Positions 16,957 through 58,125 of a stretch of DNA of 64,000 nt are shown in pieces. The position numbers and the translations under genes are program-made. Source of the DNA: a virus (Duplodnaviria; Heunggongvirae; Uroviricota; Caudoviricetes); IMG/VR virus record IMGVR_UViG_3300031555_007106. The stretch is one strand, 5' to 3'. The notes beneath the pieces were generated by a model, which saw only the letters and a list, made by a program, of their open reading frames with translations, did not search any database and was not told where the DNA came from. Position 1 is the first letter of the stretch; the number at the start of each line of letters is the position of its first letter.

Positions 16957-17096
16957 AATTAATTTTCCTTTCATAATAAAATAATAGCAATTCTTTAAAA
17001 CTCCAGTCGTCATAAAATAATTGCTATTTATAGTATGGTAAAAAAGCTGTAAAACAAAAAAGCCCGCCGTAGCGAGCCTTTTTCTTTGTTTTGCTA
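16957..17096 (-). repeat. terminator-promoter-RBS cassette copy 1
   Basis: Matches ~130-bp consensus (minus orientation): TAATAGCAATAAC-AAAGAAAAAGGCTCGC-TACG-GCGGGCTTTTTTG-TTTTAC-GCAAACTTTATCATACTAT-TAGTAGCAATTATTTT-ATGACGACTGGAGTTTTAAAG-AATTGCTATTATTTT-ATTATGAAAGGAAA-N-ATG. Confidence 0.85.
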
Positions 17097-17438
17097 TTAT
17101 TCTGCGTACTTAAACCAAACTAAGTAACAATCATCATCTGCAATGAATTCTGCACTTGTATCAGCATTGTATCTCATTTCGCCATCTAAAAGAACTTCGT
17201 CGTCCTCTATAAGCTCATCATAATATTCCATATTATCGTTTCTGCTAATAATATATATAATTTCAAGCTTAGTAAGTTCTTCTTCAGCGTGGTCGTATTT
17301 GTATGCTACATCGCCAATATCACATCTGCGTTCATTCAGATAATAGTCAACTGCATCTTCGGTATTTTCATTGTACTCAGATAAAGTCCACCATTCTTCA
17401 AGAGTGGAGAGCAACATTCTTTCTTCGTTTGTCAACAT
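17097..17438 (-). CDS. strongly acidic small protein (113 aa)
   Basis: ORF track. About 27% D+E. Stop codon lies inside the cassette-1 TAATAG motif. Confidence 0.65.
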   Translation of the reverse strand: MLTNEERMLLSTLEEWWTLSEYNENTEDAVDYYLNERRCDIGDVAYKYDHAEEELTKLEIIYIISRNDNMEYYDELIEDDEVLLDGEMRYNADTSAEFIADDDCYLVWFKYAE

Positions 17439-17454
17439 TCCCTTTAGCTCCTTT

Positions 17455-17655
17455 TTATAATTTTATGAGTTCATCCCCTATACGAATAGTATCAAGGTTT
17501 GTAAAATTATCAACCGAAATTTCAATACTCTCTATATTGAGAAGATTCATAGCCTTTTTAGCTTTCTCTTCCGTTGTGCATCTTGCAAAAATTACACCTT
17601 CTAAGTCATCAGTTCCGACTATATTATATAATTTGTCCATATTATTTCCTTTCAT
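17455..17655 (-). CDS. hypothetical protein (66 aa)
   Basis: ORF in co-directional array. Confidence 0.5.
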   Translation of the reverse strand: MKGNNMDKLYNIVGTDDLEGVIFARCTTEEKAKKAMNLLNIESIEISVDNFTNLDTIRIGDELIKL

Positions 17656-17672
17656 TATTCGTTATCATCAAT

Positions 17673-18008
17673 TTATTCTTCGCCATATATTCCAACAGCT
17701 TCAACCTTGTCAAAAATTATTCGAATTAAGATTGAACCACAGCTTATGCCACAAATATCGCAATATTCCTTCCAGACATGAGTTTTAAAGTCATCTGCAA
17801 ACAAGAAGACATAATTCATTTCGGCCATTCTTACATCTCTTCTTGTTTCTTGTTCATTTGTTGCGTCTTCGGGTTTAAAATATATAATGATATTTTCTGC
17901 GCAGCAATTTACACCGCAGTGTTCGCAATACCTTTCCCAGATATCCCAATCAAACTCTTTCAAATCATCCGCACGCAAAACAATGCGGTTCATTTCATTT
18001 TTGTTCAT
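17673..18008 (-). CDS. hypothetical protein (111 aa) with internal tandem duplication of a CxxCGxxC module
   Basis: YCEHCGVNCCAENIIIYFKPEDA and YCDICGISCGSILIRIIFDKVEA halves. Confidence 0.6.
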   Translation of the reverse strand: MNKNEMNRIVLRADDLKEFDWDIWERYCEHCGVNCCAENIIIYFKPEDATNEQETRRDVRMAEMNYVFLFADDFKTHVWKEYCDICGISCGSILIRIIFDKVEAVGIYGEE

Positions 18009-18024
18009 AACTTAATCCTTTCGT

Positions 18025-18624
18025 TTAATTCTTTGTATCATGCTTGCAACGAAGAGTAGGGATTTCATATTTAGTTCCATGTTCTTCATTATATAGTTTA
18101 ACTTTTTCGGCAGCTCTGTCAGAAAGCATATCTGCAATCTTAACAGCAAGTTTATAGTCCGTATATACTTTTTTGGTAAATATACAATCTATATCCTCAT
18201 TAAGCTGCACCTGACTCGACAATACATCCCCTGCTTCTGTTTCTAAGAAGTTGCTTTCCACGATATTGTAGACATCAAGTTGTGTTGTTACAATATTAGA
18301 ATGTAAATAATTAGCAGGACCGGTTTTCTTAAAAATGGAGTATTTTTTACTTGTTTTTATCGTGCCATCAGCGTATGTAGGAAGCTTCCAGTTCTCATAC
18401 GAAACCGCCTGTTCCTCTATGCTATAAACCTTATACTTTGAAACCTTGTATCCATAGACGGTAAAATTGATTATTTCTTTATCACACATCGGACAATCAA
18501 AGGTCATCTCGTTTACAGTAAGTTTCCGGGTTCCCTCACATACCCGGCATGGGCCACGAAAATTAAAATAGTTATTTCTTTCTATACGATAAAAAATATC
18601 ACCAATCTGTGGTGTTACAGACAT
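18025..18624 (-). CDS. hypothetical Zn-finger protein (199 aa; CRVCEG...CPMC)
   Basis: ORF track. Confidence 0.65.
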   Translation of the reverse strand: MSVTPQIGDIFYRIERNNYFNFRGPCRVCEGTRKLTVNEMTFDCPMCDKEIINFTVYGYKVSKYKVYSIEEQAVSYENWKLPTYADGTIKTSKKYSIFKKTGPANYLHSNIVTTQLDVYNIVESNFLETEAGDVLSSQVQLNEDIDCIFTKKVYTDYKLAVKIADMLSDRAAEKVKLYNEEHGTKYEIPTLRCKHDTKN

Positions 18625-18639
18625 AATATACTTCCTTTC

Positions 18640-18864
18640 TTAATCTATACATTCAAAAGCATCTTCATCAGCTTTAGTAGGACGCATAATTCCTATACGA
18701 AGAGATATATCTCCACCCTGATTAATAACAGTATTTGCACCGCCATTATTCTCAAGATGTCTGAAAACTCTTTCCTTTATGGATTCTTCCGTTTCGTCAG
18801 GTCCAATATCCATAATTGCGTCCACATAAAACATTTGCTTTATTCTTACAAATCTTTTAGGCAT
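18640..18864 (-). CDS. hypothetical protein (74 aa)
   Basis: ORF in array. Confidence 0.5.
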   Translation of the reverse strand: MPKRFVRIKQMFYVDAIMDIGPDETEESIKERVFRHLENNGGANTVINQGGDISLRIGIMRPTKADEDAFECID

Positions 18865-18882
18865 ATTACTTTTCCTTTCTTA

Positions 18883-19494
18883 TCAATTTGTGTTTTGCAC
18901 AGCACAATTTATGCTTTTTGTGATTTCTCCGTGGGTAAAATAGCTTACTGAATTATCAGCTACAGAAATAATCTCATCTTCTGCATCCAAATAGTGTTCT
19001 ATGTGATTAACAAGCAAATCATCGTTTGAAAGTTCCATAATCACCCGTTCAAGGAAAAGAGATAAGTAAAAGTTATCACCCTTACCAAACACTTCTTTGT
19101 GAGCGATAAGACAATCCTTTGCTTTTTCATCATCAATTTCACCATAATTTTCATAGTTATGATAACTCTCAAAAGCAAAAGACAAAGCAACGTTGTAATC
19201 GGGAGACCAGCAAGCAAGTCTACCAACAGGCATTTTCTTGCCACTATATCTGCCGCTGTAAATACTACCGATATAATAATATTGCTTTCCAAAAGTTTCA
19301 GCAAACACTTTCATATATTTCTGCAAATACGATTGTTTATCTTTTTCTGTAGAATATCGTAGCCAAACACAAAGAAAATTTTCCATTCTTGTTACAAAGG
19401 GGGAATTATTATCGTATTCCCCCTTCACAATCATCTGAAAGTATTCTTCGACATCAGCTTTAAATGCATCGATTTTATCAACTGATTCGAACAT
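18883..19494 (-). CDS. hypothetical protein (203 aa)
   Basis: ORF track. Confidence 0.65.
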   Translation of the reverse strand: MFESVDKIDAFKADVEEYFQMIVKGEYDNNSPFVTRMENFLCVWLRYSTEKDKQSYLQKYMKVFAETFGKQYYYIGSIYSGRYSGKKMPVGRLACWSPDYNVALSFAFESYHNYENYGEIDDEKAKDCLIAHKEVFGKGDNFYLSLFLERVIMELSNDDLLVNHIEHYLDAEDEIISVADNSVSYFTHGEITKSINCAVQNTN

Positions 19495-22522: not shown

Positions 22523-22768
22523 TTAATGTAAATATTTTCTGTAATAGTCCATAGCGTCCTCGACTGTTTCAAACAGGTCATCTACATCGTCAGGTTCATC
22601 AGGTATGAACCCCGTTCTGCGGTCAATGATGCAATAGCCGAAGAAATATGTGCTATTAGGTTTTTCTTTCTTAAACTCTTCGAAATTATCGTAAATGTCG
22701 CCGTAGTTACCATTTTCTAATTCTTCTGCAACAACTACAGTAATTTCATACTTGTCATTAATCTTCAT
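22523..22768 (-). CDS. hypothetical protein (81 aa); tandem paralog of the N-terminal half of 22800..23300
   Basis: MKINDKYEITVVVAEELENGNYGDIYDNFEEFKKEKPNSTYFFGYCIID vs MKVDERYEITPVVVECLPDGNAGSIYVDFHKFKLDKPNSEYFFAFCVVD. Confidence 0.6.
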   Translation of the reverse strand: MKINDKYEITVVVAEELENGNYGDIYDNFEEFKKEKPNSTYFFGYCIIDRRTGFIPDEPDDVDDLFETVEDAMDYYRKYLH

Positions 22769-22799
22769 AGTTTTAATTCCCTTTCTTAAATAATTTCAA

Positions 22800-23300
22800 T
22801 TAACCCATTGGTCCATAACTTTGATTTTCAATTCTTGCCAACTTTAAACGCATCTCATACGCTTCTTGGTCTCTTTCGTTCATCCTTTTCCGAAGACTAT
22901 CTCTATCTTCTATCAAAGCATAGATATGCTGAACAGCTCTTCTTAAACCATCAACATTAGCAGGTAAAAGACCTATCGGAGACTGAACGTATTTTAAAGA
23001 TTCATCATTTTTCGCCGTCGATGAAAAAGGAAATTCATCGTTCACCTCAATATCGCTGAAACCCATCAATACGTGAAGACGATAATCATTCATAGCATCG
23101 TCAAGCGTTTCATTCCATTTGTTACAGTTGTCAGGGATATATCCTGTTTCTGTATCGACAACGCAAAAAGCGAAGAAATATTCACTATTTGGCTTATCAA
23201 GCTTGAATTTATGAAAATCCACATAAATACTCCCCGCATTTCCATCGGGAAGACATTCGACAACAACAGGTGTAATTTCATATCTTTCATCAACTTTCAT
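22800..23300 (-). CDS. hypothetical protein (166 aa); first gene after cassette 2
   Basis: ORF track. AAAGGAAA RBS from cassette. Confidence 0.65.
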   Translation of the reverse strand: MKVDERYEITPVVVECLPDGNAGSIYVDFHKFKLDKPNSEYFFAFCVVDTETGYIPDNCNKWNETLDDAMNDYRLHVLMGFSDIEVNDEFPFSSTAKNDESLKYVQSPIGLLPANVDGLRRAVQHIYALIEDRDSLRKRMNERDQEAYEMRLKLARIENQSYGPMG

Positions 23301-23441
23301 AATATTTTCCTTTCATTAATAAAAATAATAGCAATCTATAACTCCAGTCGTCATAAAATAATTGCTACTAATAGTATGATAAAGTTTGCGTAAAACAAAA
23401 AAGCCCGCCGAAGCGAGCCTTTTTTTCTTTGTTATTGCTTA
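23301..23441 (-). repeat. terminator-promoter-RBS cassette copy 2 (UUCG-loop terminator variant; 3-nt shorter spacer)
   Basis: aaaaataatagcaatctataactccagtcgtcataaaataattgctactaatagtatgataaagtttgcgtaaaacaaaaaagcccgccgaagcgagcc... Confidence 0.85.
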
Positions 23442-23918
23442 TTAACCAAACGATTCAACCCGAACATAATTAGGGACGACATCAACATCTAACTCTGCAA
23501 AGTATTTTTTGAAAATTTCGCAAAGTTTTTCTTCAGTTAAGTTCTTTTCAGTTTCGTTCATATACCATGGATGTGTTTCAGGATGCATAATAGCCCAATC
23601 ATATTCCGAACGAACTTCATCAATAAAGACTCCTGTTTCTTTTCTCATGATGTAAGCAATTACGGAATAAAACGAACCGCAACCTGATATATCATATTCA
23701 TCTTCAGCTTCAACATATCCGTCTAACCAATCAGAAAATTCTTCGTTTTCTTCATTCAGATTTTCGATATCAAATCCTTCAGATTCGGCCTTTTCCAGCA
23801 TTTTCTTATAATCTTCCGGTAAATGTTTTTCATAGAAACGTAAAAAAGCCTTAAGTTCTACGCATATTACGTTTATATCAACGCCGTATCCATAGGTAAT
23901 ACTTGTCTGCATACTCAT
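23442..23918 (-). CDS. acidic hypothetical protein (158 aa)
   Basis: ORF track. Stop codon inside cassette-2 TAATAA motif. Confidence 0.65.
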   Translation of the reverse strand: MSMQTSITYGYGVDINVICVELKAFLRFYEKHLPEDYKKMLEKAESEGFDIENLNEENEEFSDWLDGYVEAEDEYDISGCGSFYSVIAYIMRKETGVFIDEVRSEYDWAIMHPETHPWYMNETEKNLTEEKLCEIFKKYFAELDVDVVPNYVRVESFG

Positions 23919-27420: not shown

Positions 27421-27553
27421 ATTTATCCTTTCCTTTCATAAAAATAAGCAATAATTTTTAAACTCCGTTCATCATAAAAATATTGCTATACATAGTATGG
27501 TAAAAAAGCCATAAAACAAAAAAAGCCCACCGAAGTGAGCTTCTTTATTGCTA
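27421..27553 (-). repeat. terminator-promoter-RBS cassette copy 3 (divergent; terminator stem carries compensatory GCUCAC/GUGGGC change)
   Basis: ...aaactccgttcatcataaaaatattgctatacatagtatggtaaaaaagccataaaacaaaaaaagcccaccgaagtgagc... Confidence 0.8.
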
Positions 27554-27982
27554 TTATTTTTCTATTATTCTTCTTCGTACGCTTTCCGCCTGTTCCATAG
27601 TCAGAAGATTATTGTTCTTTGCCATATCCTCATTATACCCAAGTTCAGTGCAAATTTTAGCTATCGAAGTTGTTGTCACTCCGAATTCTTCCGCTAGAGC
27701 TTTCATTGAAACAGTCGGCTTTGTTCCTTCTGCAACGCTCGTTTCGGTGTTATCAACTGTCTTTTTCTTGCGTGTAGACTTAGGTAACTTTGTTTCTGCC
27801 TGAGGAGCATCGAAAACTTCGTTTTTCGCATTTTCAAGAAGCTCTTCAAGCATCTCCTTTTTATCCTTGAGGCAATCCTTACGTGCATTCATTATTGCAA
27901 TTTCCGTTTCGCAAGCGGCAATCTCCTTTTTGCACGTTTCAAATTCTTTTGTTATTTTTTCAATAAGAGTCATAATACTCAC
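27554..27982 (-). CDS. coiled-coil protein with C-terminal helix-turn-helix-like segment (142 aa); candidate DNA-binding regulator
   Basis: C-terminus SMKALAEEFGVTTTSIAKICTELGY...LTMEQAESVRRR. Stop codon inside cassette-3 TAATAG. Confidence 0.6.
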   Translation of the reverse strand: MSIMTLIEKITKEFETCKKEIAACETEIAIMNARKDCLKDKKEMLEELLENAKNEVFDAPQAETKLPKSTRKKKTVDNTETSVAEGTKPTVSMKALAEEFGVTTTSIAKICTELGYNEDMAKNNNLLTMEQAESVRRRIIEK

Positions 27983-28919: not shown

Positions 28920-29588
28920 TCAATAAATCACTTTTTCAACCATATTGTATGTAATATTGGGATTGAATTTGAAGAATATACCTAAAGCTTCGTTCTTCGA
29001 CCATGCGTAAGTCACGAATTCATAATTCTTATTGTTTATTGTAAAACGAATTTTATATTCTCGACATATGTTTAAATGTTTCGGGTCGTAATCGTGCGTT
29101 ATATCGTACCAATAAATGACACCGTCGTCATCTTCGGATTTGTTGTATTTTTCTAACTCAGGATACTTATTTACCATTTTTCGGTAATTATACTCTTCGA
29201 TAATAGGCATACGACCATAATAAGAGTTTCCTATATATTCATTTTTGAGGTCAATTTCATACCTTGCGTAGTGTTCTACTGTTAAATTGTAGATGAATAT
29301 TTTTATCGTTCTCCACTTACGCAATATGTTTATCTGCGTTGTTAAATCGCAATCGATATAATCATCACAAACCCATCCCCTTTTATCGCAATAAATATAG
29401 CCTAGAAGTGCAAGTTTTTCTGTACCATCTTCTGAAAGTTCTATATTCAAACGAGCCTCAACAAATCCTATACGGTACTTAGCAATAGTAAAAACAGGAA
29501 TTTCTACATTGTGTAATTCATGAGACTCCCAAATCTCGCGAATTGCATCGCTTTCTTCATGACAAAAATTGTCTTTCTTTTTTTTCAT
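28920..29588 (-). CDS. hypothetical protein (222 aa); N-terminal ~110-aa domain paralogous to 38907..39794
   Basis: YRIGFVEARLNIELSEDGTEKLALLGY...GWVCDDYIDCDLT vs YRIGFIQGELMIENSEDGSEKITLFGY...GWCPDDYIDYDLT. Confidence 0.65.
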   Translation of the reverse strand: MKKKKDNFCHEESDAIREIWESHELHNVEIPVFTIAKYRIGFVEARLNIELSEDGTEKLALLGYIYCDKRGWVCDDYIDCDLTTQINILRKWRTIKIFIYNLTVEHYARYEIDLKNEYIGNSYYGRMPIIEEYNYRKMVNKYPELEKYNKSEDDDGVIYWYDITHDYDPKHLNICREYKIRFTINNKNYEFVTYAWSKNEALGIFFKFNPNITYNMVEKVIY

Positions 29589-29602
29589 AGATTTTTCCTT
29601 TC

Positions 29603-29932
29603 TTATTTACTGTAAATTAATTCGGCATTTTTCCAAGGGAACTCTGACCAATCCCCTGTATCCTCACAGTTTGTGATAAGTTCGCTGTATTCCTTCTCGC
29701 ATTTATCTCGTAACTTGCAAGCGTCTTCATATGATAAATCCACCGCATCGGGTACAATATACCAGAATTTAGTAGAATATCCATCACGCGCAGCTTTCGG
29801 AGTGTCAAAATCCTTCAAAAAATCAGGATAGCATCCAAATTTATTTCGATAGATGATGATTGCAAATGTCACTTTATAACGACCTTCGATAAGGCCATCA
29901 TCTTCCACAAAAAACGTACGATTTAAATTCAT
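29603..29932 (-). CDS. hypothetical protein (109 aa)
   Basis: ORF track. Confidence 0.6.
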   Translation of the reverse strand: MNLNRTFFVEDDGLIEGRYKVTFAIIIYRNKFGCYPDFLKDFDTPKAARDGYSTKFWYIVPDAVDLSYEDACKLRDKCEKEYSELITNCEDTGDWSEFPWKNAELIYSK

Positions 29933-33187: not shown

Positions 33188-33322
33188 TTTCTTCTTTCCT
33201 TTCATTAAAATAATAGCAATTCTTTAAAACTCCAAACGTCATAAAACAATCGCTACTAATAGTATGATAAAAAAGCCGTAAAACAAAAAAGCCCGCCAAA
33301 GCGGACTTTTTCGCAATATTGC
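33188..33322 (-). repeat. terminator-promoter-RBS cassette copy 4 (terminator stem GUCCGC-UUUG-GCGGGC, compensatory)
   Basis: aaaataatagcaattctttaaaactccaaacgtcataaaacaatcgctactaatagtatgataaaaaagccgtaaaacaaaaaagcccgccaaagcggac... Confidence 0.8.
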
Positions 33323-34042
33323 TTAAAAATTATTCATAGCTTGTTCTTTTTCATAGAGTGCCTGATATTTATTGACATACGCTTCAAGCTTTTTTATAAA
33401 TTTCTCAGCGTCTTTTTTTATGTTGTCATTATCCTCCTCAAATAATTTTTCGAGGTTTTCCATTTCATTATCTCGGAATGCCTCGATTAAATCTCTCTTC
33501 ATTAATGCATATTTGTTCTCAGAAAAATGCCCTAAAGAGTAATGTGCAGAAGGTGTGTGTAAAACCTTGTAATTTACAACTCTCAATCCGGTTGTAGGAC
33601 TATTAGCTTGCACTTTTGGCACTTCACAACTTTCTGTTGTAAAGACAATAATCAGTTCATCCTCTTCTTTCTTATCTTTACCGATAATATAAATACTGTT
33701 ATCTTTATCCAAATTTCTTTTTTCTGCTTGCCTTGAATTATAAAAGCCGCATTTAAGCGGTATACCCATAGACATAAATACATCATTAAGTACATCTGAC
33801 ACACAATGAGAAACACTACTGTTTTTGTAAGAGGACACTATTCGAAGTCTCTGGTTGATAATAGAGTCAAAACCTATACCAACAAGAAACTCCCTAATCG
33901 TCATTCGGTAGAAATCTTCAATTTCCTTTACATCTTTTCTCGGATACAGTTTTCGCAATCGAAAATCCTTTTTAGACTTTTCTATAGTTTTAAAAAAACC
34001 ATCTTCCGCAACAAGCACTTTCTTAGTTTCATACATGCCCAT
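33323..34042 (-). CDS. hypothetical protein (239 aa)
   Basis: ORF track. Stop precedes cassette 4. Confidence 0.65.
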   Translation of the reverse strand: MGMYETKKVLVAEDGFFKTIEKSKKDFRLRKLYPRKDVKEIEDFYRMTIREFLVGIGFDSIINQRLRIVSSYKNSSVSHCVSDVLNDVFMSMGIPLKCGFYNSRQAEKRNLDKDNSIYIIGKDKKEEDELIIVFTTESCEVPKVQANSPTTGLRVVNYKVLHTPSAHYSLGHFSENKYALMKRDLIEAFRDNEMENLEKLFEEDNDNIKKDAEKFIKKLEAYVNKYQALYEKEQAMNNF

Positions 34043-36142: not shown

Positions 36143-36282
36143 TTTAATTCTCCTTTTAAAATAATTTAAGCAATTTTTAGAACTCCATAACGTCATAAAA
36201 TACTGCTATATATAGTATGAAAGTTTTCTTATAAAATAAAAAGCCCGCCGTAGCGAGCTTTTCTTTGCTATTATCTATTATT
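36143..36282 (-). repeat. terminator-promoter-RBS cassette copy 5 (most divergent)
   Basis: ...aagcaatttttagaactccataacgtcataaaatactgctatatatagtatgaaagttttcttataaaataaaaagcccgccgtagcgagc... Confidence 0.7.
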
Positions 36283-37369: not shown

Positions 37370-37566
37370 AATTTTATTCCTTTCTCTTTTAAAACTTTTT
37401 CTATCTCTTCTCTATTTGTGCAGAAGAGATTTTTGCTGTCAATCCAATACGCTTTAGGAGTTTTCTTCAGGAACTCTATCATTCTTTCACTTAGATATTC
37501 CTCCTCAAAGAATATTATTCGATAACCATGAAAATAGCGTTTATCCTGCACTCTTACAATAGTCAT
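37366..37566 (-). CDS. hypothetical protein (66 aa)
   Basis: ORF in array. 4-nt overlap. Confidence 0.5.
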   Translation of the reverse strand: MTIVRVQDKRYFHGYRIIFFEEEYLSERMIEFLKKTPKAYWIDSKNLFCTNREEIEKVLKEKGIKL

Positions 37567-37840
37567 CTGTCTTCTCCGTTTTTCTCAACCATTCCATATG
37601 TGCTTCCATTTCTGCAATATACTGTTCTTCCGAAACAGGTTCGTCATCTTCAGCTAATGCTTCGCAACATCCTCTTGCAGGACAATAAGAGCAATCAAAC
37701 CATTCGATGCAGTGGAAGTTACCATCTTCATCATACGCAGATTTAACATCCTCTTCGCTGCCTAAAACAGCCTGTAGGTTGTAATATCTGTCATCTTCTT
37801 CTCTGCCTTCATATTCGGCATTAAGCTGTTCGATAGTCAT
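37541..37840 (-). CDS. Cys-rich small protein (99 aa); tandem paralog of 37864..38058
   Basis: NLQAVLGSEED...DEDGNFHCIEWFDCSYCPARGCCE vs NYQAVLGTEAE...DENGNFHCINWFNCCYCPARNHCE. Confidence 0.55.
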   Translation of the reverse strand: MTIEQLNAEYEGREEDDRYYNLQAVLGSEEDVKSAYDEDGNFHCIEWFDCSYCPARGCCEALAEDDEPVSEEQYIAEMEAHMEWLRKTEKTDDYCKSAG

Positions 37841-37863
37841 ATTTTTATTTCCTTTCTTTGTTT

Positions 37864-38058
37864 TTAGGGTTCACAATGGTTACGTGCAGGACAATAACAG
37901 CAATTAAACCAATTAATACAGTGGAAATTGCCATTTTCATCAAATGCTGCCGCTCCTTCTGCTTCAGTTCCAAGTACAGCCTGATAATTAAGATAATCTT
38001 TTTCAGGGACTTTTCCTTCTGCATATGCTCGTTCAAGCTCCTCAATTGTAAGATACAT
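37864..38058 (-). CDS. Cys-rich small protein (64 aa); first gene after cassette 6
   Basis: ORF 37864..38115 starts inside the cassette. Start moved to MYLTIEELERAY after AAAGGAAG RBS. Confidence 0.5.
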   Translation of the reverse strand: MYLTIEELERAYAEGKVPEKDYLNYQAVLGTEAEGAAAFDENGNFHCINWFNCCYCPARNHCEP

Positions 38059-38202
38059 TATTACGCTTCCTTTCATTAATAAAATAATAGCAATCTTTAA
38101 GACTCCAGTCGTCAATAAATAATTGCTACTAATAGTATGATGAAAAAGGTATAAAACAAAAAAAAGCCCGCCGTAGCGAGCTTTTCTGTTATTGCTATTA
38201 CA
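38059..38202 (-). repeat. terminator-promoter-RBS cassette copy 6
   Basis: taaaataatagcaatctttaagactccagtcgtcaataaataattgctactaatagtatgatgaaaaaggtataaaacaaaaaaaagcccgccgtagcgagc... Confidence 0.85.
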
Positions 38203-38906: not shown

Positions 38907-39794
38907 TTAATAATTTTCATCAACATACGGATACGCCTTATCGGTATCAATACCATATTCTTTAAGCTTAGAAAGCATAAACTCCGTTACTTCTTTGCCG
39001 ATTTCAAGCACTTCATCTTCGTCAAGCTGTTCTGATGTTGCAGAATGAGATAAAAATGTGGTCACGAACTCTTCGGAAGTATTGTCGATTTCATCCCAGT
39101 AAGCCATATTAGCCTTTTTGTCGAGAGTCTCATCATCTTCCTCAGAGATTAAAGTAATCTTCTTACGAGCCAAAGCAATGTGTTCGGCTGCCTCTGGTAT
39201 TTCCTTAAGGATAACATCTTCCGTAATAGAATCGGGAAAGGTTGTTAAAAAATAAACAATATCTTCTACGTTTTTTTCTCTCAATTCAGCAGCAGCAAGA
39301 CTCTGGAATCCGTTGTTATGAAAAGCATTATCGCAATGATTGAAATTATCATCATTGAAATTCATATACAGTTTATACCATATATCCTTTTCGGCCATAT
39401 ACTTATCATATTCTTCACGAACAGGTAAATATCCGCGATAAACATTATCCATATCAGTATCGCGGCAATCAATGCCGAGCTTCCAGTAGTGTTCCTGAAT
39501 CACATTATAGAGAAACACCTTTATTGCATTCCAGCACTTCAACTTCTTGATTTCATCCGTTAAATCGTAATCAATATAATCATCGGGACACCAACCGCTG
39601 TTTTTCTGGTTTACATAACCGAATAACGTAATCTTTTCAGAACCATCCTCTGAATTTTCAATCATAAGTTCACCCTGAATAAAACCGATACGATATGTAG
39701 CTATGACTACATGGTCTCCGAATTCTCTGTTTTCCCAAAGATGACGAATAAGGTAGTTATCTTCATGCCAAAACTTTTCTATTCTTTTACCCAT
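38907..39794 (-). CDS. hypothetical protein (295 aa); paralog (N-terminal domain) of 28920..29588
   Basis: ORF track. See 28920..29588. Confidence 0.65.
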   Translation of the reverse strand: MGKRIEKFWHEDNYLIRHLWENREFGDHVVIATYRIGFIQGELMIENSEDGSEKITLFGYVNQKNSGWCPDDYIDYDLTDEIKKLKCWNAIKVFLYNVIQEHYWKLGIDCRDTDMDNVYRGYLPVREEYDKYMAEKDIWYKLYMNFNDDNFNHCDNAFHNNGFQSLAAAELREKNVEDIVYFLTTFPDSITEDVILKEIPEAAEHIALARKKITLISEEDDETLDKKANMAYWDEIDNTSEEFVTTFLSHSATSEQLDEDEVLEIGKEVTEFMLSKLKEYGIDTDKAYPYVDENY

Positions 39795-39808
39795 AATGAT
39801 TTCCTTTC

Positions 39809-40150
39809 TTATAATAAATCTGCGGTCCAGTCATCGATATGACAATTATCCACAATTGCTTCCAATTTAATGACAGCGCTTTCGAGCTTATTAATCTTAG
39901 CGGTTGCGTCAATAAGCTTGATGTGCATAACCGCTTCGTTATATGTTTCAAAAAAACCTTCATAGCGAGAAGGCTCTAAACAGCTGAGCAACTTATTTTC
40001 ACCATTTACTTCGATAGAATATTCGGTAAATACGCCACAAGATACTGCATAACGCTTACCAAAACGTTCGCACTGCTCATCGCTAAGTTCGTAAATTGCC
40101 CATTTGTTTACATTTACTCCCCTTACTTCAAAAAATTTTCTTAACTTCAT
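39809..40150 (-). CDS. hypothetical protein (113 aa)
   Basis: ORF track. Confidence 0.6.
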   Translation of the reverse strand: MKLRKFFEVRGVNVNKWAIYELSDEQCERFGKRYAVSCGVFTEYSIEVNGENKLLSCLEPSRYEGFFETYNEAVMHIKLIDATAKINKLESAVIKLEAIVDNCHIDDWTADLL

Positions 40151-43953: not shown

Positions 43954-44092
43954 AATTTAATTCCTTTCATAATAAAAATAATAGCAATTCTTTAAAAACT
44001 CCAATCGTCATAAAATAATTGCTACTAATAGTATGATAAAGTTTGCGTAAAACAAAAAAGCCCGCCGTAGCGAGCCTTTTTTGTTATTGCTA
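43954..44092 (-). repeat. terminator-promoter-RBS cassette copy 7 (near-identical to copy 2)
   Basis: ...ataatagcaattctttaaaaactccaatcgtcataaaataattgctactaatagtatgataaagtttgcgtaaaacaaaaaagcccgccgtagcgagcc... Confidence 0.85.
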
Positions 44093-44242
44093 TTATATAG
44101 GACAGGTATCCTCTCGTTCTTTTTCTCCTTCTTCCACCTCAGGAGAAATAACAGTATTTGTTAATGTACATTTGTACCCAACAACATCCATTAATTCTCC
44201 ATCAATTATAGATTTTCTGTATTCGCATTCTTTGCACTTCAT
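44093..44242 (-). CDS. small Cys-containing peptide (49 aa: MKCKECEYRKSIIDGELMDVVGYKCTLTN...EDTCPI); below ORF-track cutoff
   Basis: Hand-found. GGAGG 7 nt upstream of ATG at 44242. Stop TAA is inside the cassette-7 TAATAG motif. Confidence 0.35.
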   Translation of the reverse strand: MKCKECEYRKSIIDGELMDVVGYKCTLTNTVISPEVEEGEKEREDTCPI

Positions 44243-49310: not shown

Positions 49311-49490
49311 AACTAATTTTCCTTTCGCAATAAAATAATAGCAATTCTTTAAAACTCCAGTCGTCATAAAATAATTGCTATTTATAGTATGGTAAAAAAG
49401 CCGTAAAACAAAAAAGCCCGCACACGGCGAGCTTTTCTTTTTGTTGCTACTATTTTTACAGTGTTTTCAAATTATCCACAGAGGCGTAAC
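49311..49490 (-). repeat. terminator-promoter-RBS cassette copy 8 (near-identical to copy 1; hairpin variant gcccgcacacggcgagc; ~45-nt extra spacer before upstream stop)
   Basis: aataaaataatagcaattctttaaaactccagtcgtcataaaataattgctatttatagtatggtaaaaaagccgtaaaacaaaaaagcccgcacacggcgagc... Confidence 0.8.
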
Positions 49491-51994: not shown

Positions 51995-52154
51995 AAAATT
52001 TATCCTTTCATAATAAAAATAATAGCAATTCTTTAAAAACTCCAGTCGTCATAAAATAATTGCTATTAATAGTATGATAAAGTTTGCATAAAACAAAAAA
52101 GCCCGCCGAAGCGAGCCTTTTTCTTTGTTATTGCTATTATTAAAATATTAGTTA
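51995..52154 (-). repeat. terminator-promoter-RBS cassette copy 9
   Basis: aaaaataatagcaattctttaaaaactccagtcgtcataaaataattgctattaatagtatgataaagtttgcataaaacaaaaaagcccgccgaagcgagcc... Confidence 0.85.
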
Positions 52155-55465: not shown

Positions 55466-55480
55466 AATTCTTTCCTTTCT

Positions 55481-55867
55481 TTATGTTGCAGTTGCAATAA
55501 TAGCTTTTAATGCATCCTTTGCTTCTTTACGAGTGAAAAACACCATCTTGCCAAAATCTTCAAATGTAACGATATGATTGTGAGATTCCTGAGCACTTTC
55601 ATCTTCCCAATGTATTACTACGTGTTTCCAACCATTACGCATATCCATACATCCTACATAGCCTTTAAATATCTTAAAAGTAGTAGAATCGGCTTTTCTG
55701 GCAATAAACCATACTTTATCCCCCATTTTACAGGGAGGAACGATTATGCCATTGTTTATGAGGTAATCGGCAAGAATTTCGCTTTCATGGCTCATAAAAA
55801 ATATTTCCCCATCTTCACCACAGCAACAATCATTAAGTATTTCAATTAATTTTTCGCGTTCTGTCAT
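55481..55867 (-). CDS. hypothetical protein (128 aa)
   Basis: ORF track. Confidence 0.55.
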   Translation of the reverse strand: MTEREKLIEILNDCCCGEDGEIFFMSHESEILADYLINNGIIVPPCKMGDKVWFIARKADSTTFKIFKGYVGCMDMRNGWKHVVIHWEDESAQESHNHIVTFEDFGKMVFFTRKEAKDALKAIIATAT

Positions 55868-55919
55868 TATAACCTTCCTTTTATATTGTCGTTTTCATTG
55901 AATTGCACAGTAGTCTGTA

Positions 55920-57020
55920 TTAAGACGTAAAAGATAAACAAGTTCCAACCTCTCGGAAATCGACCCCGTTTTCTAAGAAAAAACGAACTCTCTCTTTGAT
56001 TTTAGATATGTACGAGCCGTCAATTTCAATGGTTGTACATTTTCTGTTTTCGCACATAGCGGCAATCAATGAGGAACCTGAACCTGCGAATGGGTCAAGT
56101 ATCATATCCCCTTCCTTTGTTGAGTTGCGTATATACATACGAAGCAAATCAACAGGCTTTTCGGTCTCATGAATCTTATTTCCGATAATGTTATTGAACT
56201 CGTGAACAGTTTTACAACCCTTATCGGCAATTGATTTTGCCTTGCCTTTACGGCAGAAGAGCACATATTCGGCGTTCTTCATATACCAACGATTCGGAGT
56301 AGCGTTGTTTTTCTTCCACACAAGTAAATTGTGTATCTGAAACCCTGCTTTCTGCACTTCAGCCATTAATTCCTGAAGATTTAACAGGTTTATGAAAAAA
56401 TAGGCATGACATTCATTTTTAAGGACACGAAACAGTTCTCCCATATATTCGGAAAAACTGATATTATTGTGTTCAAATATCTTGCCGTTGTTTTTTGTCA
56501 GCATACCTGATGGGTCTCCTTCACCGCAAGCACCACCACTTATAGTGCGATATGGGACATCAGTAAGTATCATATCAAAGCTTTCTGTCTTCAAACGTTT
56601 CAGAATTTCTCTGGCGTCATCCTGTATAAGCATAGCAGAAAGGCTTTCATAATGATTTTCCATGTCTTCAAAAGATGAAAAATTATCCATTCTCTGATAC
56701 ACACCTGTTTTTACATCTTCTTTTGTTACATAATCTCTGTGTATGAAAGAAATTTCCTTGTTGCCATTATAGTAAGTAGCCACGTAATTTACAGACTTAT
56801 CTTCATCAGACAATTCAGTAACCTTTACCACTTCAACAACACTGTATACGCCTTTATCTATACGAGAAAAAGCCGCATTTTCTTCTGTGTTAATAAGATA
56901 GCGGTTAATATTACCACGAATAGAAGATTTCTTATACTCCGGCAATGAATCGTAAATTTCACTCAAACTCATAGTTTTATTAACCTGTAATAGGCTAATA
57001 ACCTTTTCCACAATCGTCAT
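55920..57020 (-). CDS. DNA methyltransferase, beta-class N6-adenine/N4-cytosine family (366 aa) with ~130-aa N-terminal extra domain; no adjacent nuclease (orphan)
   Basis: Motif IV-like ILTDVPY, then HETEKPVDLL, then motif I LDPFAGSGSS. The order IV->I is typical of beta-class amino-MTases. Confidence 0.85.
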   Translation of the reverse strand: MTIVEKVISLLQVNKTMSLSEIYDSLPEYKKSSIRGNINRYLINTEENAAFSRIDKGVYSVVEVVKVTELSDEDKSVNYVATYYNGNKEISFIHRDYVTKEDVKTGVYQRMDNFSSFEDMENHYESLSAMLIQDDAREILKRLKTESFDMILTDVPYRTISGGACGEGDPSGMLTKNNGKIFEHNNISFSEYMGELFRVLKNECHAYFFINLLNLQELMAEVQKAGFQIHNLLVWKKNNATPNRWYMKNAEYVLFCRKGKAKSIADKGCKTVHEFNNIIGNKIHETEKPVDLLRMYIRNSTKEGDMILDPFAGSGSSLIAAMCENRKCTTIEIDGSYISKIKERVRFFLENGVDFREVGTCLSFTS

Positions 57021-57036
57021 TTTACATCCTTTCTTC

Positions 57037-57522
57037 TTATTTTTCGTTTATTTTCGCTTTAATAAATCGACAAAAAGTCTCATTGTTGCTTTCGTTATAG
57101 AAAAAAGTAGGAGAAAGTCGGCCGAAAAACCATTCCTGTACCACCATTTTTATCGGTAATTTCAAGAATTCTTCATCAGGCAACTTCCAAAGCTGCTCGC
57201 AGCGAACGCACGAATCTGTCGTACCGTTGCCAAAACCAATATCCGTTTTAAATTGTTCTTCTACCTCTTTTAATGCATTTTCGAAAGCATTGAAAACGGT
57301 AAGTACTTCAGCGTTATTCTTGTATTGTTCATACAAGCCATTGAATTCGCCGTAAAGAAAACTTAATTCGGGATAACGCTTTTTAGCCTCAGGATTCCCA
57401 AAAGGGACAGTTTCTCCGTTGTACGTAAAAGTAATTTTCATATCCCGGAGAGCTTCGCCACTCATTTCTTTCATAGCGTTGTCAGCTAAATATTGCTCAT
57501 AAGGTTTCCAGTCTTTACTCAC
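57037..57522 (-). CDS. hypothetical protein (161 aa)
   Basis: ORF track. Confidence 0.6.
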   Translation of the reverse strand: MSKDWKPYEQYLADNAMKEMSGEALRDMKITFTYNGETVPFGNPEAKKRYPELSFLYGEFNGLYEQYKNNAEVLTVFNAFENALKEVEEQFKTDIGFGNGTTDSCVRCEQLWKLPDEEFLKLPIKMVVQEWFFGRLSPTFFYNESNNETFCRFIKAKINEK

Positions 57523-57533
57523 TATCTTACCTC

Positions 57534-57758
57534 CTATAACATTACAACTCTCGCTTTAGCTGTTCCAAGTTCCCAATATGCTACTATCTCAGCTACCACC
57601 TTTTCATGAAGCCAAGTATATAAACAATTAGGATACGCTCTTTTGATTGAATAGTCACCATCCTTATCTTCAACGACCAATTGGTTATATCCATCTCTTA
57701 AAGCTATTTTTACAGCATTTTTGATATAATCATTCAATTCCATCTTCTTCTCCTTCAT
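57534..57758 (-). CDS. hypothetical protein (74 aa)
   Basis: ORF track. Confidence 0.5.
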   Translation of the reverse strand: MKEKKMELNDYIKNAVKIALRDGYNQLVVEDKDGDYSIKRAYPNCLYTWLHEKVVAEIVAYWELGTAKARVVML

Positions 57759-57988
57759 GCCTCAAACAAATGAGCAATTGAATCATAACCGGGCTTGTTA
57801 CTACCGAAAGATTCGACGTGATAAAGAATAGTTGTTAAAAGACTTTCGTCATTATTAAGGTCAACAAGTTCTCTTTCTTCGTAGTCAGGCTGAAAATTTT
57901 GTTCTCTTGCGATTTCCTCGTAGATATCAAGCAGAATTTTCTGCTCAGCATAAGATACCTCAACGTATTTGCCATAATACTCGTTCAT
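57755..57988 (-). CDS. hypothetical protein (77 aa); first gene after cassette 10
   Basis: ORF track. Confidence 0.5.
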   Translation of the reverse strand: MNEYYGKYVEVSYAEQKILLDIYEEIAREQNFQPDYEERELVDLNNDESLLTTILYHVESFGSNKPGYDSIAHLFEA

Positions 57989-58125
57989 AGTTTATTTTCC
58001 TTTCATAATAAAATAATAGCAATTCTTAAAACTCCTATCGTCAATAAAATATTGCTATTAATAGTATGATAAAGTTTGCATAAAACAAAAAAGCCCGCCG
58101 AAGCGAGCTTTTTCTATTATTGCTA
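57989..58125 (-). repeat. terminator-promoter-RBS cassette copy 10 (near-identical to copy 9)
   Basis: aataaaataatagcaattcttaaaactcctatcgtcaataaaatattgctattaatagtatgataaagtttgcataaaacaaaaaagcccgccgaagcgagc... Confidence 0.85.

What the first reader, a model, noticed from the sequence alone, without database searches (positions are those of the whole stretch)
16957..58125. Ten copies of a conserved ~130-bp terminator + promoter + RBS cassette divide the gene array into 2-6 kb units
The same module lies between a stop codon and the next ATG ten times across about 41 kb. In gene orientation it reads: TAATAGCAATAAC, AAAGAAAAAGG-CUCGC-UWCG-GCGGGC-UUUUUUG (bidirectional-looking intrinsic terminator), TTTTACGCAAACTTTATCATACTAT, TAGTAGCAATTATTTT, ATGACGACTGGAGTTTTAAAG, AATTGCTATTATTTT (extended -10-like TGCTATTAT), ATTATGAAAGGAAA (RBS), N4-10, ATG. 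The copies fall into near-identical subfamilies (2/7, 9/10, 1/8). Conservation extends well beyond promoter hexamers to the spacer and loop sequences, which ordinary independent promoters do not show. This is what phage early-gene regions built from mobile regulatory cassettes look like (T4 PeSL-type elements are the known precedent). Whether this is a phage or not, the module is probably both the transcriptional punctuation and the recombination substrate of the island.
Basis: seen in the sequence. Interest (0 to 1): 0.85.

Follow-up and report, generated by a model that had tools for sequence, protein, structure and literature searches.

The report
Repeated terminator-promoter-leader junctions with matched mRNA ends
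A long one-strand array of about 100 unknown small genes is cut into 2-6 kb transcription units by a repeated 140-bp terminator, promoter and leader junction, and each unit's predicted mRNA has a 5' leader complementary to the sequence just before its own terminator, which looks like a built-in way to insulate and stabilise each message.

Summary
Ten copies lie at the stated intergenic positions, and three more lie upstream of the window on the same 193-kb metagenome contig.

Each copy is the junction of two transcription units:
- a 3' box overlapping the stop codon, then an intrinsic terminator;
- a sigma-A-type promoter, TTGTTT-N16-TACTAT, inside an invariant CATACTAT;
- a 5' leader hairpin whose loop carries GAYG-N3-4-GGAG;
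- a Shine-Dalgarno site.

There are two new findings.
- The promoter plus loop motif recurs in unrelated Clostridia-type mobile-element loci, with different stem sequences. No Rfam family matches it.
- The leader box is complementary to the box just upstream of the terminator that ends the same unit. This covaries unit by unit in a distant relative (5 of 5 units, P about 1e-5) and in the window's two variant units. It resembles the Bacillus subtilis hbs 5'/3'-UTR interaction.

One metagenome contig is a recombinant joined inside a cassette. That supports the PeSL-like recombination idea, but only as an analogy.

Transcription, RNA pairing and function are all inferred, not measured.

The parts
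16957..17101 (-). Junction c1: box1 17089-17101 (overlaps the stop codon), terminator 17062-17077 plus U-run, CATACTAT 17030-17037, leader 5' arm 17018-17029, loop motif GACGACTGGAG 17001-17011, box3/3' arm 16980-16992, SD 16965-16971; next ATG 16954-16956
23301..23445 (-). Junction c2: variant box1 TTAATAAGCAATAA 23432-23445, which matches the variant leader of c3 (same transcription unit); terminator 23403-23418; CATACTAT 23371-23378; motif 23342-23352; box3 23324-23335
27421..27559 (-). Junction c3: box1 27546-27559; terminator 27525-27540 with a compensatory A-U pair; CATACTAT 27492-27499; motif GATGAACGGAG 27463-27473; variant box3 ATTATTGCTTATTTT 27441-27455
33188..33329 (-). Junction c4: variant box1 TTTTTAAGCAATAT 33316-33329, which matches the variant leader of c5; terminator 33291-33306; CATACTAT 33259-33266; motif 33230-33240; box3 33209-33221
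36143..36275 (-). Junction c5 (most diverged copy): box1 36264-36275; terminator 36243-36258; CATACTAT 36212-36219; motif GACGTTATGGAG 36183-36194; variant box3 AAAATTGCTTAAATT 36163-36177
38059..38201 (-). Junction c6: box1 38191-38201; terminator 38166-38181; CATACTAT 38132-38139; motif 38103-38113; box3 38083-38094
43954..44096 (-). Junction c7: box1 44086-44096; terminator 44060-44075; CATACTAT 44028-44035; motif GACGATTGGAG 43999-44009; box3 43977-43989. The crossover of recombinant contig L221 lies in its 3' 30 nt
49311..49455 (-). Junction c8: box1 AAATAGTAGCAACA 49442-49455 (an A-to-G change that keeps a G.U pair with box3); terminator 49416-49432; CATACTAT 49384-49391; motif 49355-49365; box3 49334-49346
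51995..52142 (-). Junction c9: box1 52129-52142; terminator 52101-52116; U-run/-35 TTGTTT about 52090-52095; CATACTAT 52069-52076; 5' arm 52057-52068; motif 52040-52050; box3 52018-52030; SD 52002-52008
57989..58131 (-). Junction c10: box1 58118-58131; terminator 58093-58108; -35 TTGTTT 58083-58088; CATACTAT 58061-58068; motif GACGATAGGAG 58032-58042; box3 58012-58024
14336..14385 (-). End of the last unit (the one started by c1): box1 AATAATAGCAAAATAAAG 14368-14385 overlapping the stop codon, followed by a different terminator hairpin 14336-14364 and no cassette promoter. This shows that box1 belongs to the 3' end of a unit
   Evidence: I11
11211..11275 (-). Two tandem CATACTAT promoters (11211-11217 and 11269-11275) upstream of the 2050-aa adhesin gene. 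They share the -10 box but lack the leader motif
   Evidence: (D3, D7)
12431..12437 (-). CATACTA promoter (TTGATT-N17-TACTAT) upstream of gene 11452-12384; no leader motif
13894..13900 (-). CATACTA promoter-like site in the 630-nt non-coding region; no leader motif

Best explanation
Each repeat is the junction between two consecutive transcription units of a very large array of ORFan genes. The array sits in a mobile or accessory element of an uncultured Firmicute.

Anatomy, in gene order:
1. Box1, a 12-14-nt sequence overlapping the stop codon of the upstream unit.
2. A strand-specific intrinsic terminator that ends that unit.
3. A sigma-A-type promoter whose -35 (TTGTTT) is built from the terminator's U-tract. 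Its -10 (TACTAT) sits in the invariant CATACTAT.
4. A transcript that probably starts 6-8 nt later, at the foot of a 5'-terminal hairpin.
5. A hairpin loop that displays the conserved GAYG-N3-4-GGAG.
6. A 3' arm (box3), followed by a U-rich stretch, the SD GAAAGGAAA and the ATG.

Mechanism proposed. Box3 of a unit's leader is complementary to box1 at the far end of the same unit. The finished mRNA can therefore close its 5' and 3' ends into a panhandle next to the terminator hairpin. The 5' arm holds box3 until box1 has been transcribed. I propose that three things together protect each unit's mRNA from RNase J1, RNase Y and 3' exonucleases: the 5' hairpin, the SD-like GGAG in the loop and the 5'/3' pairing. 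The terminator insulates neighbouring units.

Side effect. Because the junctions are 70-94% alike, they also act as substrates for homologous recombination that deletes or reshuffles units.

What is shown: sequence anatomy, conservation, covariation and one recombinant contig.
What is inferred: transcription start sites, termination, RNA pairing in vivo and the effect on stability.
For: Terminator. All 13 copies pair at all 10 stem positions. There is one double compensatory change, and the one-sided changes are wobble-compatible.

Promoter.
- CATACTA occurs 14 times on the gene strand, always intergenic and upstream of a gene. It occurs twice on the other strand, both in coding sequence.
- The same box, with a TTG-containing -35 hexamer 16-17 nt upstream of TACTAT/A, recurs in L033. 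That locus is a distant relative whose methyltransferase is 53% identical. It also recurs in other loci.

Leader.
- GAYG-N3-4-GGAG lies 16-21 nt after CATACTA in the window and L216 (13 copies), in L033 (6 copies) and in about 15 further metagenome or IMG/VR loci.
- The flanks of the motif are complementary within an instance but not between instances. The mean duplex energy is -6.75 kcal/mol, against -4.18 +/- 0.42 in 2000 permutations, none of which reached the native value.
- Stem sequences differ between paralogous cassettes of L033. This is covariation rather than a shared protein operator.

5'/3' matching.
- In L033 each of the 5 testable leaders pairs best or co-best with the 36 nt upstream of its own unit's terminator. 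The own-unit mean is -15.8 kcal/mol and the null is -8.06 +/- 1.54, P about 1e-5.
- In the window, typical box1 (AAUAAUAGCAAU) is the perfect complement of typical box3.
- The only two variant leaders (c3, c5) are followed, 3-4 kb downstream, by the only two variant box1 sequences (c2, c4), and those variants restore the pairing.
- The last unit ends with box1 plus an unrelated terminator.
- Two substitutions read in the box1 cores of c8 and u3 are A-to-G changes that keep G.U pairs.
- In L090/L151 the best partner of the leader, found in a scan of the available downstream sequence (520, 857 and 5421 nt for the three leaders), lies directly upstream of a terminator.

Precedents.
- hbs mRNA has a 14-nt 5'-UTR box just downstream of a 5' hairpin. 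It pairs with a box just upstream of the terminator and limits RNase Y cleavage (PMC5737220).
- STAB-SD and the aprE leader 5' stem-loop are known stabilisers (titles seen in the reference list of PMC3997798; what they show is from my own recollection).

Recombination. Contig L221 is a junction of u2 and c7, and the cassettes have mosaic block structure.
Against: - No transcript data exist. Start sites, termination and RNA pairing are predictions.
- The local hairpin is thermodynamically modest. Folding z-scores are -1.3 to -2.4. About half of the motif-bearing loci elsewhere lack it. In some of those the GGAG is simply the gene's SD (L084, L100).
- Strand asymmetry of the long-range pairs is mixed. 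Five of 6 L033 pairs are more stable on the sense strand, three of them by only 0.5-1.2 kcal/mol, and one is clearly better on the antisense strand. DNA-level inverted repeats are therefore not excluded by energy alone.
- Whole-sequence duplex scans give chance hits as strong as the box1 sites. Significance depends on restricting candidates to terminator-proximal regions.
- The partner or role of the GAYG...GGAG motif is unknown. No complementary RNA was found.
- The recombinant junction is a single short metagenome contig and could be an assembly error.
Confidence: 0.62

Rival explanations
1. These are plain duplicated expression cassettes. A good terminator-promoter-RBS block was copied through the array and kept similar by gene conversion. 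The hairpin, loop motif and box1 have no function of their own.
For: Copies are 68-94% identical and mosaic, as expected under gene conversion. Hairpin folding energies are only weakly better than shuffles.
Against: The promoter box and loop motif are conserved in elements whose genes and stems are unrelated. Stems covary. Box1 and box3 covary between sites 0.5-4 kb apart that lie in different cassettes. Box1 also occurs without the cassette at the end of the array.
Confidence: 0.12
2. The leader hairpin with its conserved loop is the target of an element-encoded or host RNA-binding regulator, such as a CsrA-like, ProQ-like or antiterminator/attenuator protein. That regulator would switch all units together. 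The U-rich tract after the hairpin would make it a protein-dependent attenuator.
For: The 11-nt motif is invariant and displayed in a loop at a fixed distance from the promoter in many loci. The hairpin is followed by U-rich sequence in the window, L033-2559, L090 and L099. In L099 the motif forms half of a terminator-like hairpin. A ProQ-C-like protein is encoded in L033.
Against: No candidate regulator is shared among the loci available. None was found in the window by Pfam. The stems are AU-rich with 14-30-nt loops, so they are poor terminators. This reading is compatible with the 5'/3' pairing and is more an addition to the main model than an alternative.
Confidence: 0.15
3. The function is at the DNA level. 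Box3 and box1 are inverted repeats flanking each gene unit, and arm5 and box1 are direct repeats. They would serve site-specific or single-strand (HUH or integron-like) excision, inversion or capture of units. The hairpin with its conserved loop would be the recombination site.
For: Units are bounded by matched repeats. One recombinant joined within a cassette exists. One L033 pair is more stable on the antisense strand. The array is integron-like in being co-oriented and ORFan-rich.
Against: The repeat sequences are unit-specific, which a site-specific recombinase could not recognise. The L221 crossover lies in a 30-nt stretch identical in both parents, as expected for homologous recombination. 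All 27 other sibling contigs checked are collinear at 99.6% identity or more (most at 100%), with no inverted or circular-junction forms. No recombinase was found in the window. The motif sits at a fixed distance from a promoter, and in some loci it is the SD.
Confidence: 0.06
4. The hairpins are single-strand promoters or priming sites (Frpo or sso type). They would be used when the element enters a recipient as single-stranded DNA during conjugation, with the array being a leading region of anti-defence genes.
For: The array is co-oriented with two orphan methyltransferases. One is a DUF4942 type whose tblastn matches lie in at least 5000 plasmid records, 4179 of them typed as conjugative. 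Hairpins recur at the start of each unit.
Against: An Frpo-type promoter needs a long hairpin on the template strand carrying -35 and -10. Here the stem is 6-11 bp. The conserved -35 and -10 lie outside it as ordinary duplex elements. Local-stem wobble pairs favour the sense strand. DNA folding z-scores are weak on both strands. No relaxase, T4SS or oriT was seen in the 84 kb examined.
Confidence: 0.04

Closest known systems
PeSL elements (promoter-early stem-loop; composite terminator/promoter motifs) of T4-like myoviruses (Arbiol et al. 2010, PMC2839356; Comeau et al. 2014, PMC4122927)
   Same: A composite of a stem-loop terminator and a sigma-70-type promoter. It is repeated many times between ORFan genes in plastic regions and is proposed to mediate indels by recombination between copies. 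Here one recombinant junction lies inside a cassette.
   Different: No sequence homology was seen (a comparison by eye, not an alignment). The host is a low-GC Gram-positive-type element, not a T4-like phage. The unit here is longer (about 140 bp). It adds a conserved 5'-leader hairpin with a loop motif, an RBS, and a 3' box matched to the leader of the same unit. It bounds multi-gene units of 2-6 kb rather than single ORFs.
Long-range 5'/3'-UTR interaction of Bacillus subtilis hbs mRNA (Braun et al. 2017, PMC5737220)
   Same: A 12-18-nt box in the 5' UTR, next to or overlapping a 5' hairpin, is complementary to a box immediately upstream of the intrinsic terminator of the same mRNA. In hbs the 14-bp pairing limits RNase Y cleavage and was proven with compensatory mutants.
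   Different: hbs is a single housekeeping gene. Here the design recurs in every unit examined of a gene array (at least 13 junctions) and in a distant relative with different box sequences. It is coupled to a conserved loop motif. No experimental evidence exists here.
5' mRNA stabilisers of Firmicutes: STAB-SD (Agaisse and Lereclus 1996) and the aprE leader 5' stem-loop plus ribosome binding (Hambraeus et al. 2002)
   Same: A stem-loop at the very 5' end and an SD-like GGAG upstream of the real RBS. The references were confirmed in the list of PMC3997798.
   Different: The motif here is longer and more specific than an SD (GAYG-N3-4-GGAG) and sits in the hairpin loop. Whether ribosomes bind it is unknown.
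Cis-acting regulatory leaders of Gram-positive conjugative elements: canT of Tn916 (PMC11658703), conAn and the zipper-type attenuator of pLS20 (PMC8191782, PMC13401043)
   Same: RNA elements placed after a promoter in mobile elements whose operons contain several terminators. The zipper attenuator also uses complementarity between an upstream segment and terminator-proximal sequence.
   Different: Those RNAs are 300-450 nt, occur once per element, and act by antitermination or attenuation. Here the element is about 50 nt and occurs once per unit. The pairing does not extend into the terminator stem.

Membership tests
Intrinsic (Rho-independent) terminator | GC-rich hairpin immediately followed by a U-tract on the transcribed strand | tested here: met
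   GCUCGC-UUCG-GCGGGC plus U6-8 in all 13 copies. All cells are paired, with one compensatory double change.
Intrinsic (Rho-independent) terminator | RNA 3' ends at the U-tract in vivo or in vitro | not testable with these tools
   No transcript data.
Sigma-70/sigma-A promoter | -35 TTGACA-like and -10 TATAAT-like hexamers 16-18 bp apart | tested here: inconclusive
   TTGTTT-N16-TACTAT in 12 of the 13 cassettes (TTATTT in c5). A TTG-containing -35 hexamer (TTGTTT, TTGCAT, TTGGAC, TTGTGA) lies 17 nt upstream of TACTAT or TACTAA in L033 and other loci, read. The generic scanner did not list these sites, because the hexamers score below its 9-of-12 cut-off. CATACTA is invariant, which is more than a generic -10 needs, so a dedicated sigma factor is not excluded.
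PeSL (T4-like phage promoter-early stem-loop cassette) | Composite stem-loop terminator plus early promoter, repeated in ORFan-rich plastic regions | tested here: met
   definition from PMC4122927.
PeSL (T4-like phage promoter-early stem-loop cassette) | Resides in a T4-like myovirus genome and shares the PeSL consensus of that group | tested here: not met
   No megablast match to 50,697 phage records. PHROGs and Pfam show no T4-like core genes in the window. The consensus is different.
PeSL (T4-like phage promoter-early stem-loop cassette) | Indels between close relatives have end points in the cassettes | tested here: inconclusive
   One recombinant contig (L221). The other 27 sibling contigs checked are collinear.
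hbs-type 5'/3'-UTR long-range interaction | Complementary boxes of about 14 nt, one in the 5' UTR by a 5' hairpin and one just upstream of the terminator of the same mRNA | tested here: met
   Window: box3 and box1 form 12 perfect pairs, and the last unit also carries box1. L033: 5 of 5 units, P about 1e-5. L090/L151.
hbs-type 5'/3'-UTR long-range interaction | Pairing occurs in vivo and changes mRNA cleavage or stability (compensatory mutants) | not testable with these tools
   Needs experiments.
Any Rfam RNA family | Covariance-model score at or above the gathering threshold | tested here: not met
   No hit in the whole window. In the permissive scan of c9, the three best matches, shown as alignments, rest mainly on the terminator hairpin and U-tract; all 43 matches are below their gathering scores.
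Integron gene-cassette array (attC sites) | attC imperfect palindromes with conserved R''/R' core sites at the stem base after each (usually single) promoterless gene, plus an adjacent IntI integrase | tested here: not met
   The conserved part is in the loop and the stem is variable. Each junction carries its own promoter. Units hold 4-14 genes. No integrase was found in the 84 kb seen. The rest of the contig was not examined.
Frpo/sso-type single-strand DNA promoter or priming site | Long hairpin on the entering strand that rebuilds a duplex -35/-10 | tested here: not met
   The stem is 6-11 bp and lies downstream of the -35/-10. DNA folding z-scores are -1.3 to -2.4 on either strand. Local-stem wobble pairs favour the sense strand.
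Host genome-wide repeat (REP/BOX type) | Many copies dispersed through a bacterial chromosome | tested here: inconclusive
   No true match among 185,579 species-representative genomes. There were 27 chance hits, and none carries the extended motif. The host genome itself is unknown.

The most novel reading that the evidence does not exclude
Large ORFan gene arrays of Clostridia-type mobile elements may use a previously undescribed modular mRNA architecture. Every transcription unit carries a dedicated promoter, a 5' leader displaying the conserved loop GAYG-N3-4-GGAG, and a unit-specific 'zip code'. The zip code pairs the 5' leader with the sequence just upstream of the unit's own terminator, closing the mRNA into a panhandle. 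If the loop motif is read by a dedicated factor, this would be a new global post-transcriptional control and insulation system. It would also be the first PeSL-like shuffling system outside T4-like phages.
Probability: 0.35. Interest if true: 0.8.

Novelty: new variant of a known kind. Interest (0 to 1): 0.62.

Why it matters
The finding would show how a mobile element can express about a hundred newly acquired genes safely. Each block gets its own insulated, self-stabilising message, and the identical junctions let blocks be lost or reshuffled by recombination.

Systematic, covarying 5'/3'-end pairing would turn a single-gene curiosity (hbs) into a general design principle for bacterial mRNAs. 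It would give a simple sequence rule for delimiting transcription units in uncultured elements. It would also supply portable parts (promoter, stabilising leader, terminator) for engineering gut Firmicutes.

The conserved loop motif is a concrete handle for finding an unknown RNA-binding partner.

Tried and rejected
Searches that found no close relative:
- Megablast of 24 kb against phage and plasmid collections gave no match.
- Exact-pattern scans for the cassette found only chance hits in GTDB genomes and in IMG/VR.
- The first JGI metagenome scan found nothing. That collection evidently lacks the source contig and its siblings, so this absence is uninformative.

Noisy searches:
- The looser promoter-plus-motif scan of metagenomes returned 120 loci, most of them chance. 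About 20 were kept, judged by gap length, a preceding G and a -35 TTG.
- The same scan of IMG/VR mostly hit a conserved coding region of marine phages. Only the L156, L160, L162, L169, L175 and L177 group is genuine.
- Whole-sequence duplex scans for leader partners were too noisy. GC-rich coding sites scored as well as the true boxes. They were replaced by the terminator-restricted test.
- A literature search for the motif strings returned only unrelated primer sequences.

Ideas considered and rejected:
- Rfam: no family.
- A leader peptide after GGAG: no conserved frame or length across copies (read).
- An antisense partner for the loop motif: none in the window, L216 or L033.
- Sporulation-sigma promoters: CATACTA resembles sigma-G and sigma-K -10 boxes from memory, but the matching -35 elements are absent at the required spacing.
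- A shared operator for a repressor at TAGCAAT repeats: the arms differ among L033 cassettes.
- Extension of the box1-box3 pairing into the terminator (zipper antitermination): no complementarity.

Attempts to identify the element or a trans-acting factor:
- The Clostridium botulinum 210-kb plasmid carrying a homologous methyltransferase has no CATACTA promoters on the gene strand.
- A search for a shared trans-acting protein among motif-bearing loci found none.
- Pfam and PHROGs annotation did not settle whether the element is a phage, plasmid or ICE.

Full report
**1. Observation**

The window is a 35% G+C sequence in which nearly all genes lie on the minus strand.

Repeat finding and alignment recover ten copies of a module of about 140 nt. 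Each copy exactly fills the gap between a stop codon and the next ATG.

The series continues beyond the window. The source is a 193,036-nt JGI metagenome contig (Ga0307249_10001143). The 10 kb upstream of the window carries three more copies, giving at least 13 copies in at least 55 kb.

Pairwise identity is 68-94%. Blocks are reassorted among copies. For example, c3 and u2 share the motif variant GATGAACGGAG but have different spacers.

**2. Context**

A simple gene call gives about 109 tightly packed minus-strand genes. Nearly all have the same RBS, GAAAGGAAA.

Pfam recognises very little:
- two orphan DNA methyltransferases (a DUF4942 type at 61150-62820 and an N6_N4 type at 55920-57020);
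- a dTMP kinase, an SPFH protein, DUF3848, DUF5983 and DUF4314;
- a 2050-aa SpaA/Cna_B/thioester adhesin.

Of 81 small proteins scanned in bulk, only one has a solid hit.

Downstream lie three giant surface proteins in a row. Homologues of the DUF4942 methyltransferase occur in conjugative plasmids, in 200-kb Clostridium botulinum plasmids and in SPbeta-like phages.

The element is therefore a large accessory or mobile element of an uncultured Firmicute. Whether it is a plasmid, ICE or phage is not settled.

Sibling contigs from other samples are 99.6% or more identical to the window, most at 100%, and collinear with it. Many short ones break inside a cassette, as repeats make assemblies do.

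**3. Anatomy: terminator**

The terminator GCUCGC-UUCG-GCGGGC plus U6-8 pairs at all 10 stem positions in all 13 copies. It shows one double compensatory change (c3). A U.G pair in 12 of 13 copies makes it strand-specific rather than bidirectional.

**4. Anatomy: promoter**

It is CATACTAT.
- On the gene strand CATACTA occurs 14 times. All 14 are intergenic and upstream of a gene: the ten cassettes plus four promoters without a cassette, at 11217, 11275, 12437 and 13900.
- On the other strand it occurs twice, both times inside coding sequence.
- TTGTTT lies 16 nt upstream of TACTAT. It is made from the end of the terminator's U-tract.

The same arrangement recurs in L033: a TTG-containing -35 hexamer, 17 nt, then TACTAT or TACTAA. 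L033 is a 21.7-kb piece of an 87.6-kb contig whose DUF4942 methyltransferase is only 53% identical to the window's. It recurs in other loci too.

I read this as a sigma-A-type promoter. The invariance of CATACTA leaves a dedicated sigma factor possible.

**5. Anatomy: leader**

Downstream of the -10, TAGCAATT and AATTGCTA are inverted repeats. They form an 11-bp stem around a loop of about 27 nt. That loop contains GACGACTGGAG.

The predicted start site is 6-8 nt after TACTAT. This puts the stem at the very 5' end of the RNA.

In L033 six intergenic regions have the same layout. The stems are entirely different and the loop carries GACGAATGGAG. Pattern scans found the promoter-plus-motif pair in about 15 further loci, at 16-21 nt spacing and with consensus GAYG-N3-4-GGAG. 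One of these is a group of IMG/VR contigs. Another is a locus where the pair drives a tyrosine integrase and a DUF4368 serine recombinase.

Across 22 independent instances, the sequences flanking the motif are complementary within an instance. The mean is -6.75 kcal/mol, against -4.18 +/- 0.42 for permuted partners, and none of 2000 permutations reached the native value. Only about half the instances have a clear hairpin. In some of the others (L084, L100) the GGAG is simply the gene's Shine-Dalgarno site.

No Rfam family matches.

**6. The junction is two halves belonging to different units**

Box1 (AAUAAUAGCAAU) overlaps the upstream stop codon. It is the perfect complement of box3 (AUUGCUAUUAUU), the 3' arm of the leader hairpin. 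In the window nearly all copies are alike, so this alone says little.

L033 is more informative, because its boxes differ from unit to unit. There, each of five testable leaders pairs best or co-best with the 36 nt just upstream of the terminator or terminators that end its own unit.

| Leader (L033 position) | Own terminator(s) | Duplex energy, kcal/mol |
|---|---|---|
| 901 | 1452 and 2508 | -14.1 and -14.6 |
| 2559 | 6316 | -14.7 |
| 9928 | 12309 | -13.3 |
| 14190 | 14768 | -21.7 |
| 16386 | 19044 | -14.7 |

Non-own partners average -7.2 +/- 2.8 kcal/mol. Under random assignment, P is about 1e-5.

The window shows the same thing.
- Its only two variant leaders are c3 (UUAUUGCUUAUU) and c5 (AUUGCUUAAAUU).
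- They are followed, at the end of their own units, by the only two variant box1 sequences: c2 (AAUAAGCAAUAA) and c4 (UUUAAGCAAU).
- These variants restore the pairing. They pair poorly (-7 to -8 kcal/mol) with all typical leaders, which otherwise reach -12 to -17.
- The unit started by c1 ends at 14368-14385 with box1. An unrelated terminator follows, with no cassette promoter.
- Two substitutions read in the box1 cores of c8 and u3 are A-to-G changes that keep G.U pairs.
- In L090/L151 the leader's best partner in the downstream sequence available also lies directly before a terminator.

**7. Mechanism**

The best-supported reading is that each unit's mRNA has complementary 5' and 3' ends.

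This is the architecture proven for Bacillus subtilis hbs mRNA. There, a 14-nt box next to a 5' hairpin pairs with a box just upstream of the terminator and restrains RNase Y cleavage (PMC5737220).

Two further features are known stabilising devices in Firmicutes: a 5'-terminal stem-loop and an SD-like GGAG. The precedents are the aprE leader and STAB-SD (references confirmed).

I therefore propose three roles for the junction.
- It insulates units from each other, through the terminator.
- It restarts transcription, through the promoter.
- It equips each message with end protection.

All of this is inference from sequence. The role of the extended GAYG...GGAG motif is unknown. A dedicated RNA-binding factor is a live possibility.

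**8. Rivals**

- **DNA-level repeats for unit mobility.** These are disfavoured. The boxes are unit-specific. No inverted or excised forms occur among the sibling contigs. The one recombinant (L221) crosses over inside 30 nt identical in both parental cassettes, as homologous recombination would. However, the strand asymmetry of the long-range pairs is not unanimous.
- **Single-strand promoters of a conjugative leading region.** These do not fit. The -35 and -10 lie outside a short stem, and DNA folding is unremarkable.
- **The large antiterminator RNAs** canT and conAn, and the pLS20 zipper attenuator. These differ in size, copy number and logic.

**9. Comparison and novelty**

As a composite terminator/promoter repeated among ORFans and usable for recombination, the junction works like a PeSL of T4-like phages. 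It is not a member of that family. The host is different, there is no homology, and it has extra parts.

L221 gives one example of a cassette-mediated deletion of about 23 kb.

To my knowledge and within the libraries searched, three things have not been described:
- the unit-by-unit matching of leader and terminator-proximal boxes;
- the conserved loop motif shared by unrelated mobile elements;
- the combination of the two in arrays of about 100 genes.

I rate the finding a new variant of known kinds. Interest is moderate to high, because the central claim is directly testable with compensatory mutants and end mapping.

Noticed in passing
window 1-11161 and beyond (L241 16420-26153): Three giant surface proteins lie in a row downstream of the array: 2050 aa (SpaA/Cna_B/thioester domains and an NPETG sortase-type motif), 1797 aa and more than 2691 aa. 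The first carries a 12-aa tandem repeat (TTTPPSDDDEEI, 36-nt period at 5169-5344).
   Followed up: partly
window 13709-14335: A 630-nt non-coding stretch lies between the end of the array and the only plus-strand genes (12827-13708). It holds repeated 12-17-mers in direct and inverted orientation: TATTTTGAGATTTAYAT twice plus inverted copies, and GACATCAATTTT/TTGATGTCA several times. It could be an iteron, origin or operator region.
   Followed up: partly
L221 (ENA ERZ27248436, k141_1051466) against L216 5913-6621 and window 44096-42299: This is a recombinant contig. The unit upstream of cassette u2 is joined to the unit downstream of c7, with the crossover in the 30 nt the two cassettes share. 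That equals a deletion of about 23 kb. The c7 side is 99.1% identical, while another contig from the same sample (L230) is 100% identical to the window over the c2 region, so a second, diverged variant of the element probably coexists there.
   Followed up: partly
whole window, minus strand: Nearly all of about 109 genes use the same RBS, GAAAGGAAA, 7-9 nt before ATG. Of 81 small proteins only one has a solid Pfam family (DUF4314). The array is an extreme 'ORFanage'.
   Followed up: partly
window 37676-37983; 29527-29606 against 39733-39812; 22523-23300: Paralogous genes occur within and between units. There are adjacent duplicates at 37541-38058 and at 22523-23300. The 222-aa and 295-aa proteins at 28920-29588 and 38907-39794 share their N-termini. 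So the array also grows by gene duplication.
   Followed up: no
L099 about 574-650 (minus strand of the locus): In this relative the conserved GACGAAUG of the loop motif is itself the 5' half of a hairpin (GACGAAUG...CAUUCGUC) followed by a U-run. That makes a terminator-like attenuator built from the motif.
   Followed up: no
L033 1452-1473: An internal terminator lies after the first gene of a unit and before a DnaG-like primase gene. It is also preceded by a box complementary to the unit's leader. So a unit can have two terminators, each with its own matching box.
   Followed up: partly
window 14381-14776: The last gene of the array encodes a DUF3268 protein (precomputed Pfam annotation on L241). 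From memory, Rfam holds a 'DUF3268 RNA motif', but no Rfam hit was found anywhere in the window.
   Followed up: partly
L052 2529-4007: In another metagenome locus the same promoter plus loop motif drives a tyrosine integrase followed by a DUF4368 large serine recombinase. This ties the expression signal to integrative mobile elements of Clostridia.
   Followed up: partly
IMG/VR loci L159, L161, L164 and the many similar loci listed: The promoter-plus-motif pattern also matches a conserved coding region of marine phages (translated by eye as ...PYHTKGDAYWKDDWRNFH...). This is a false positive and is unrelated to the finding.
   Followed up: yes
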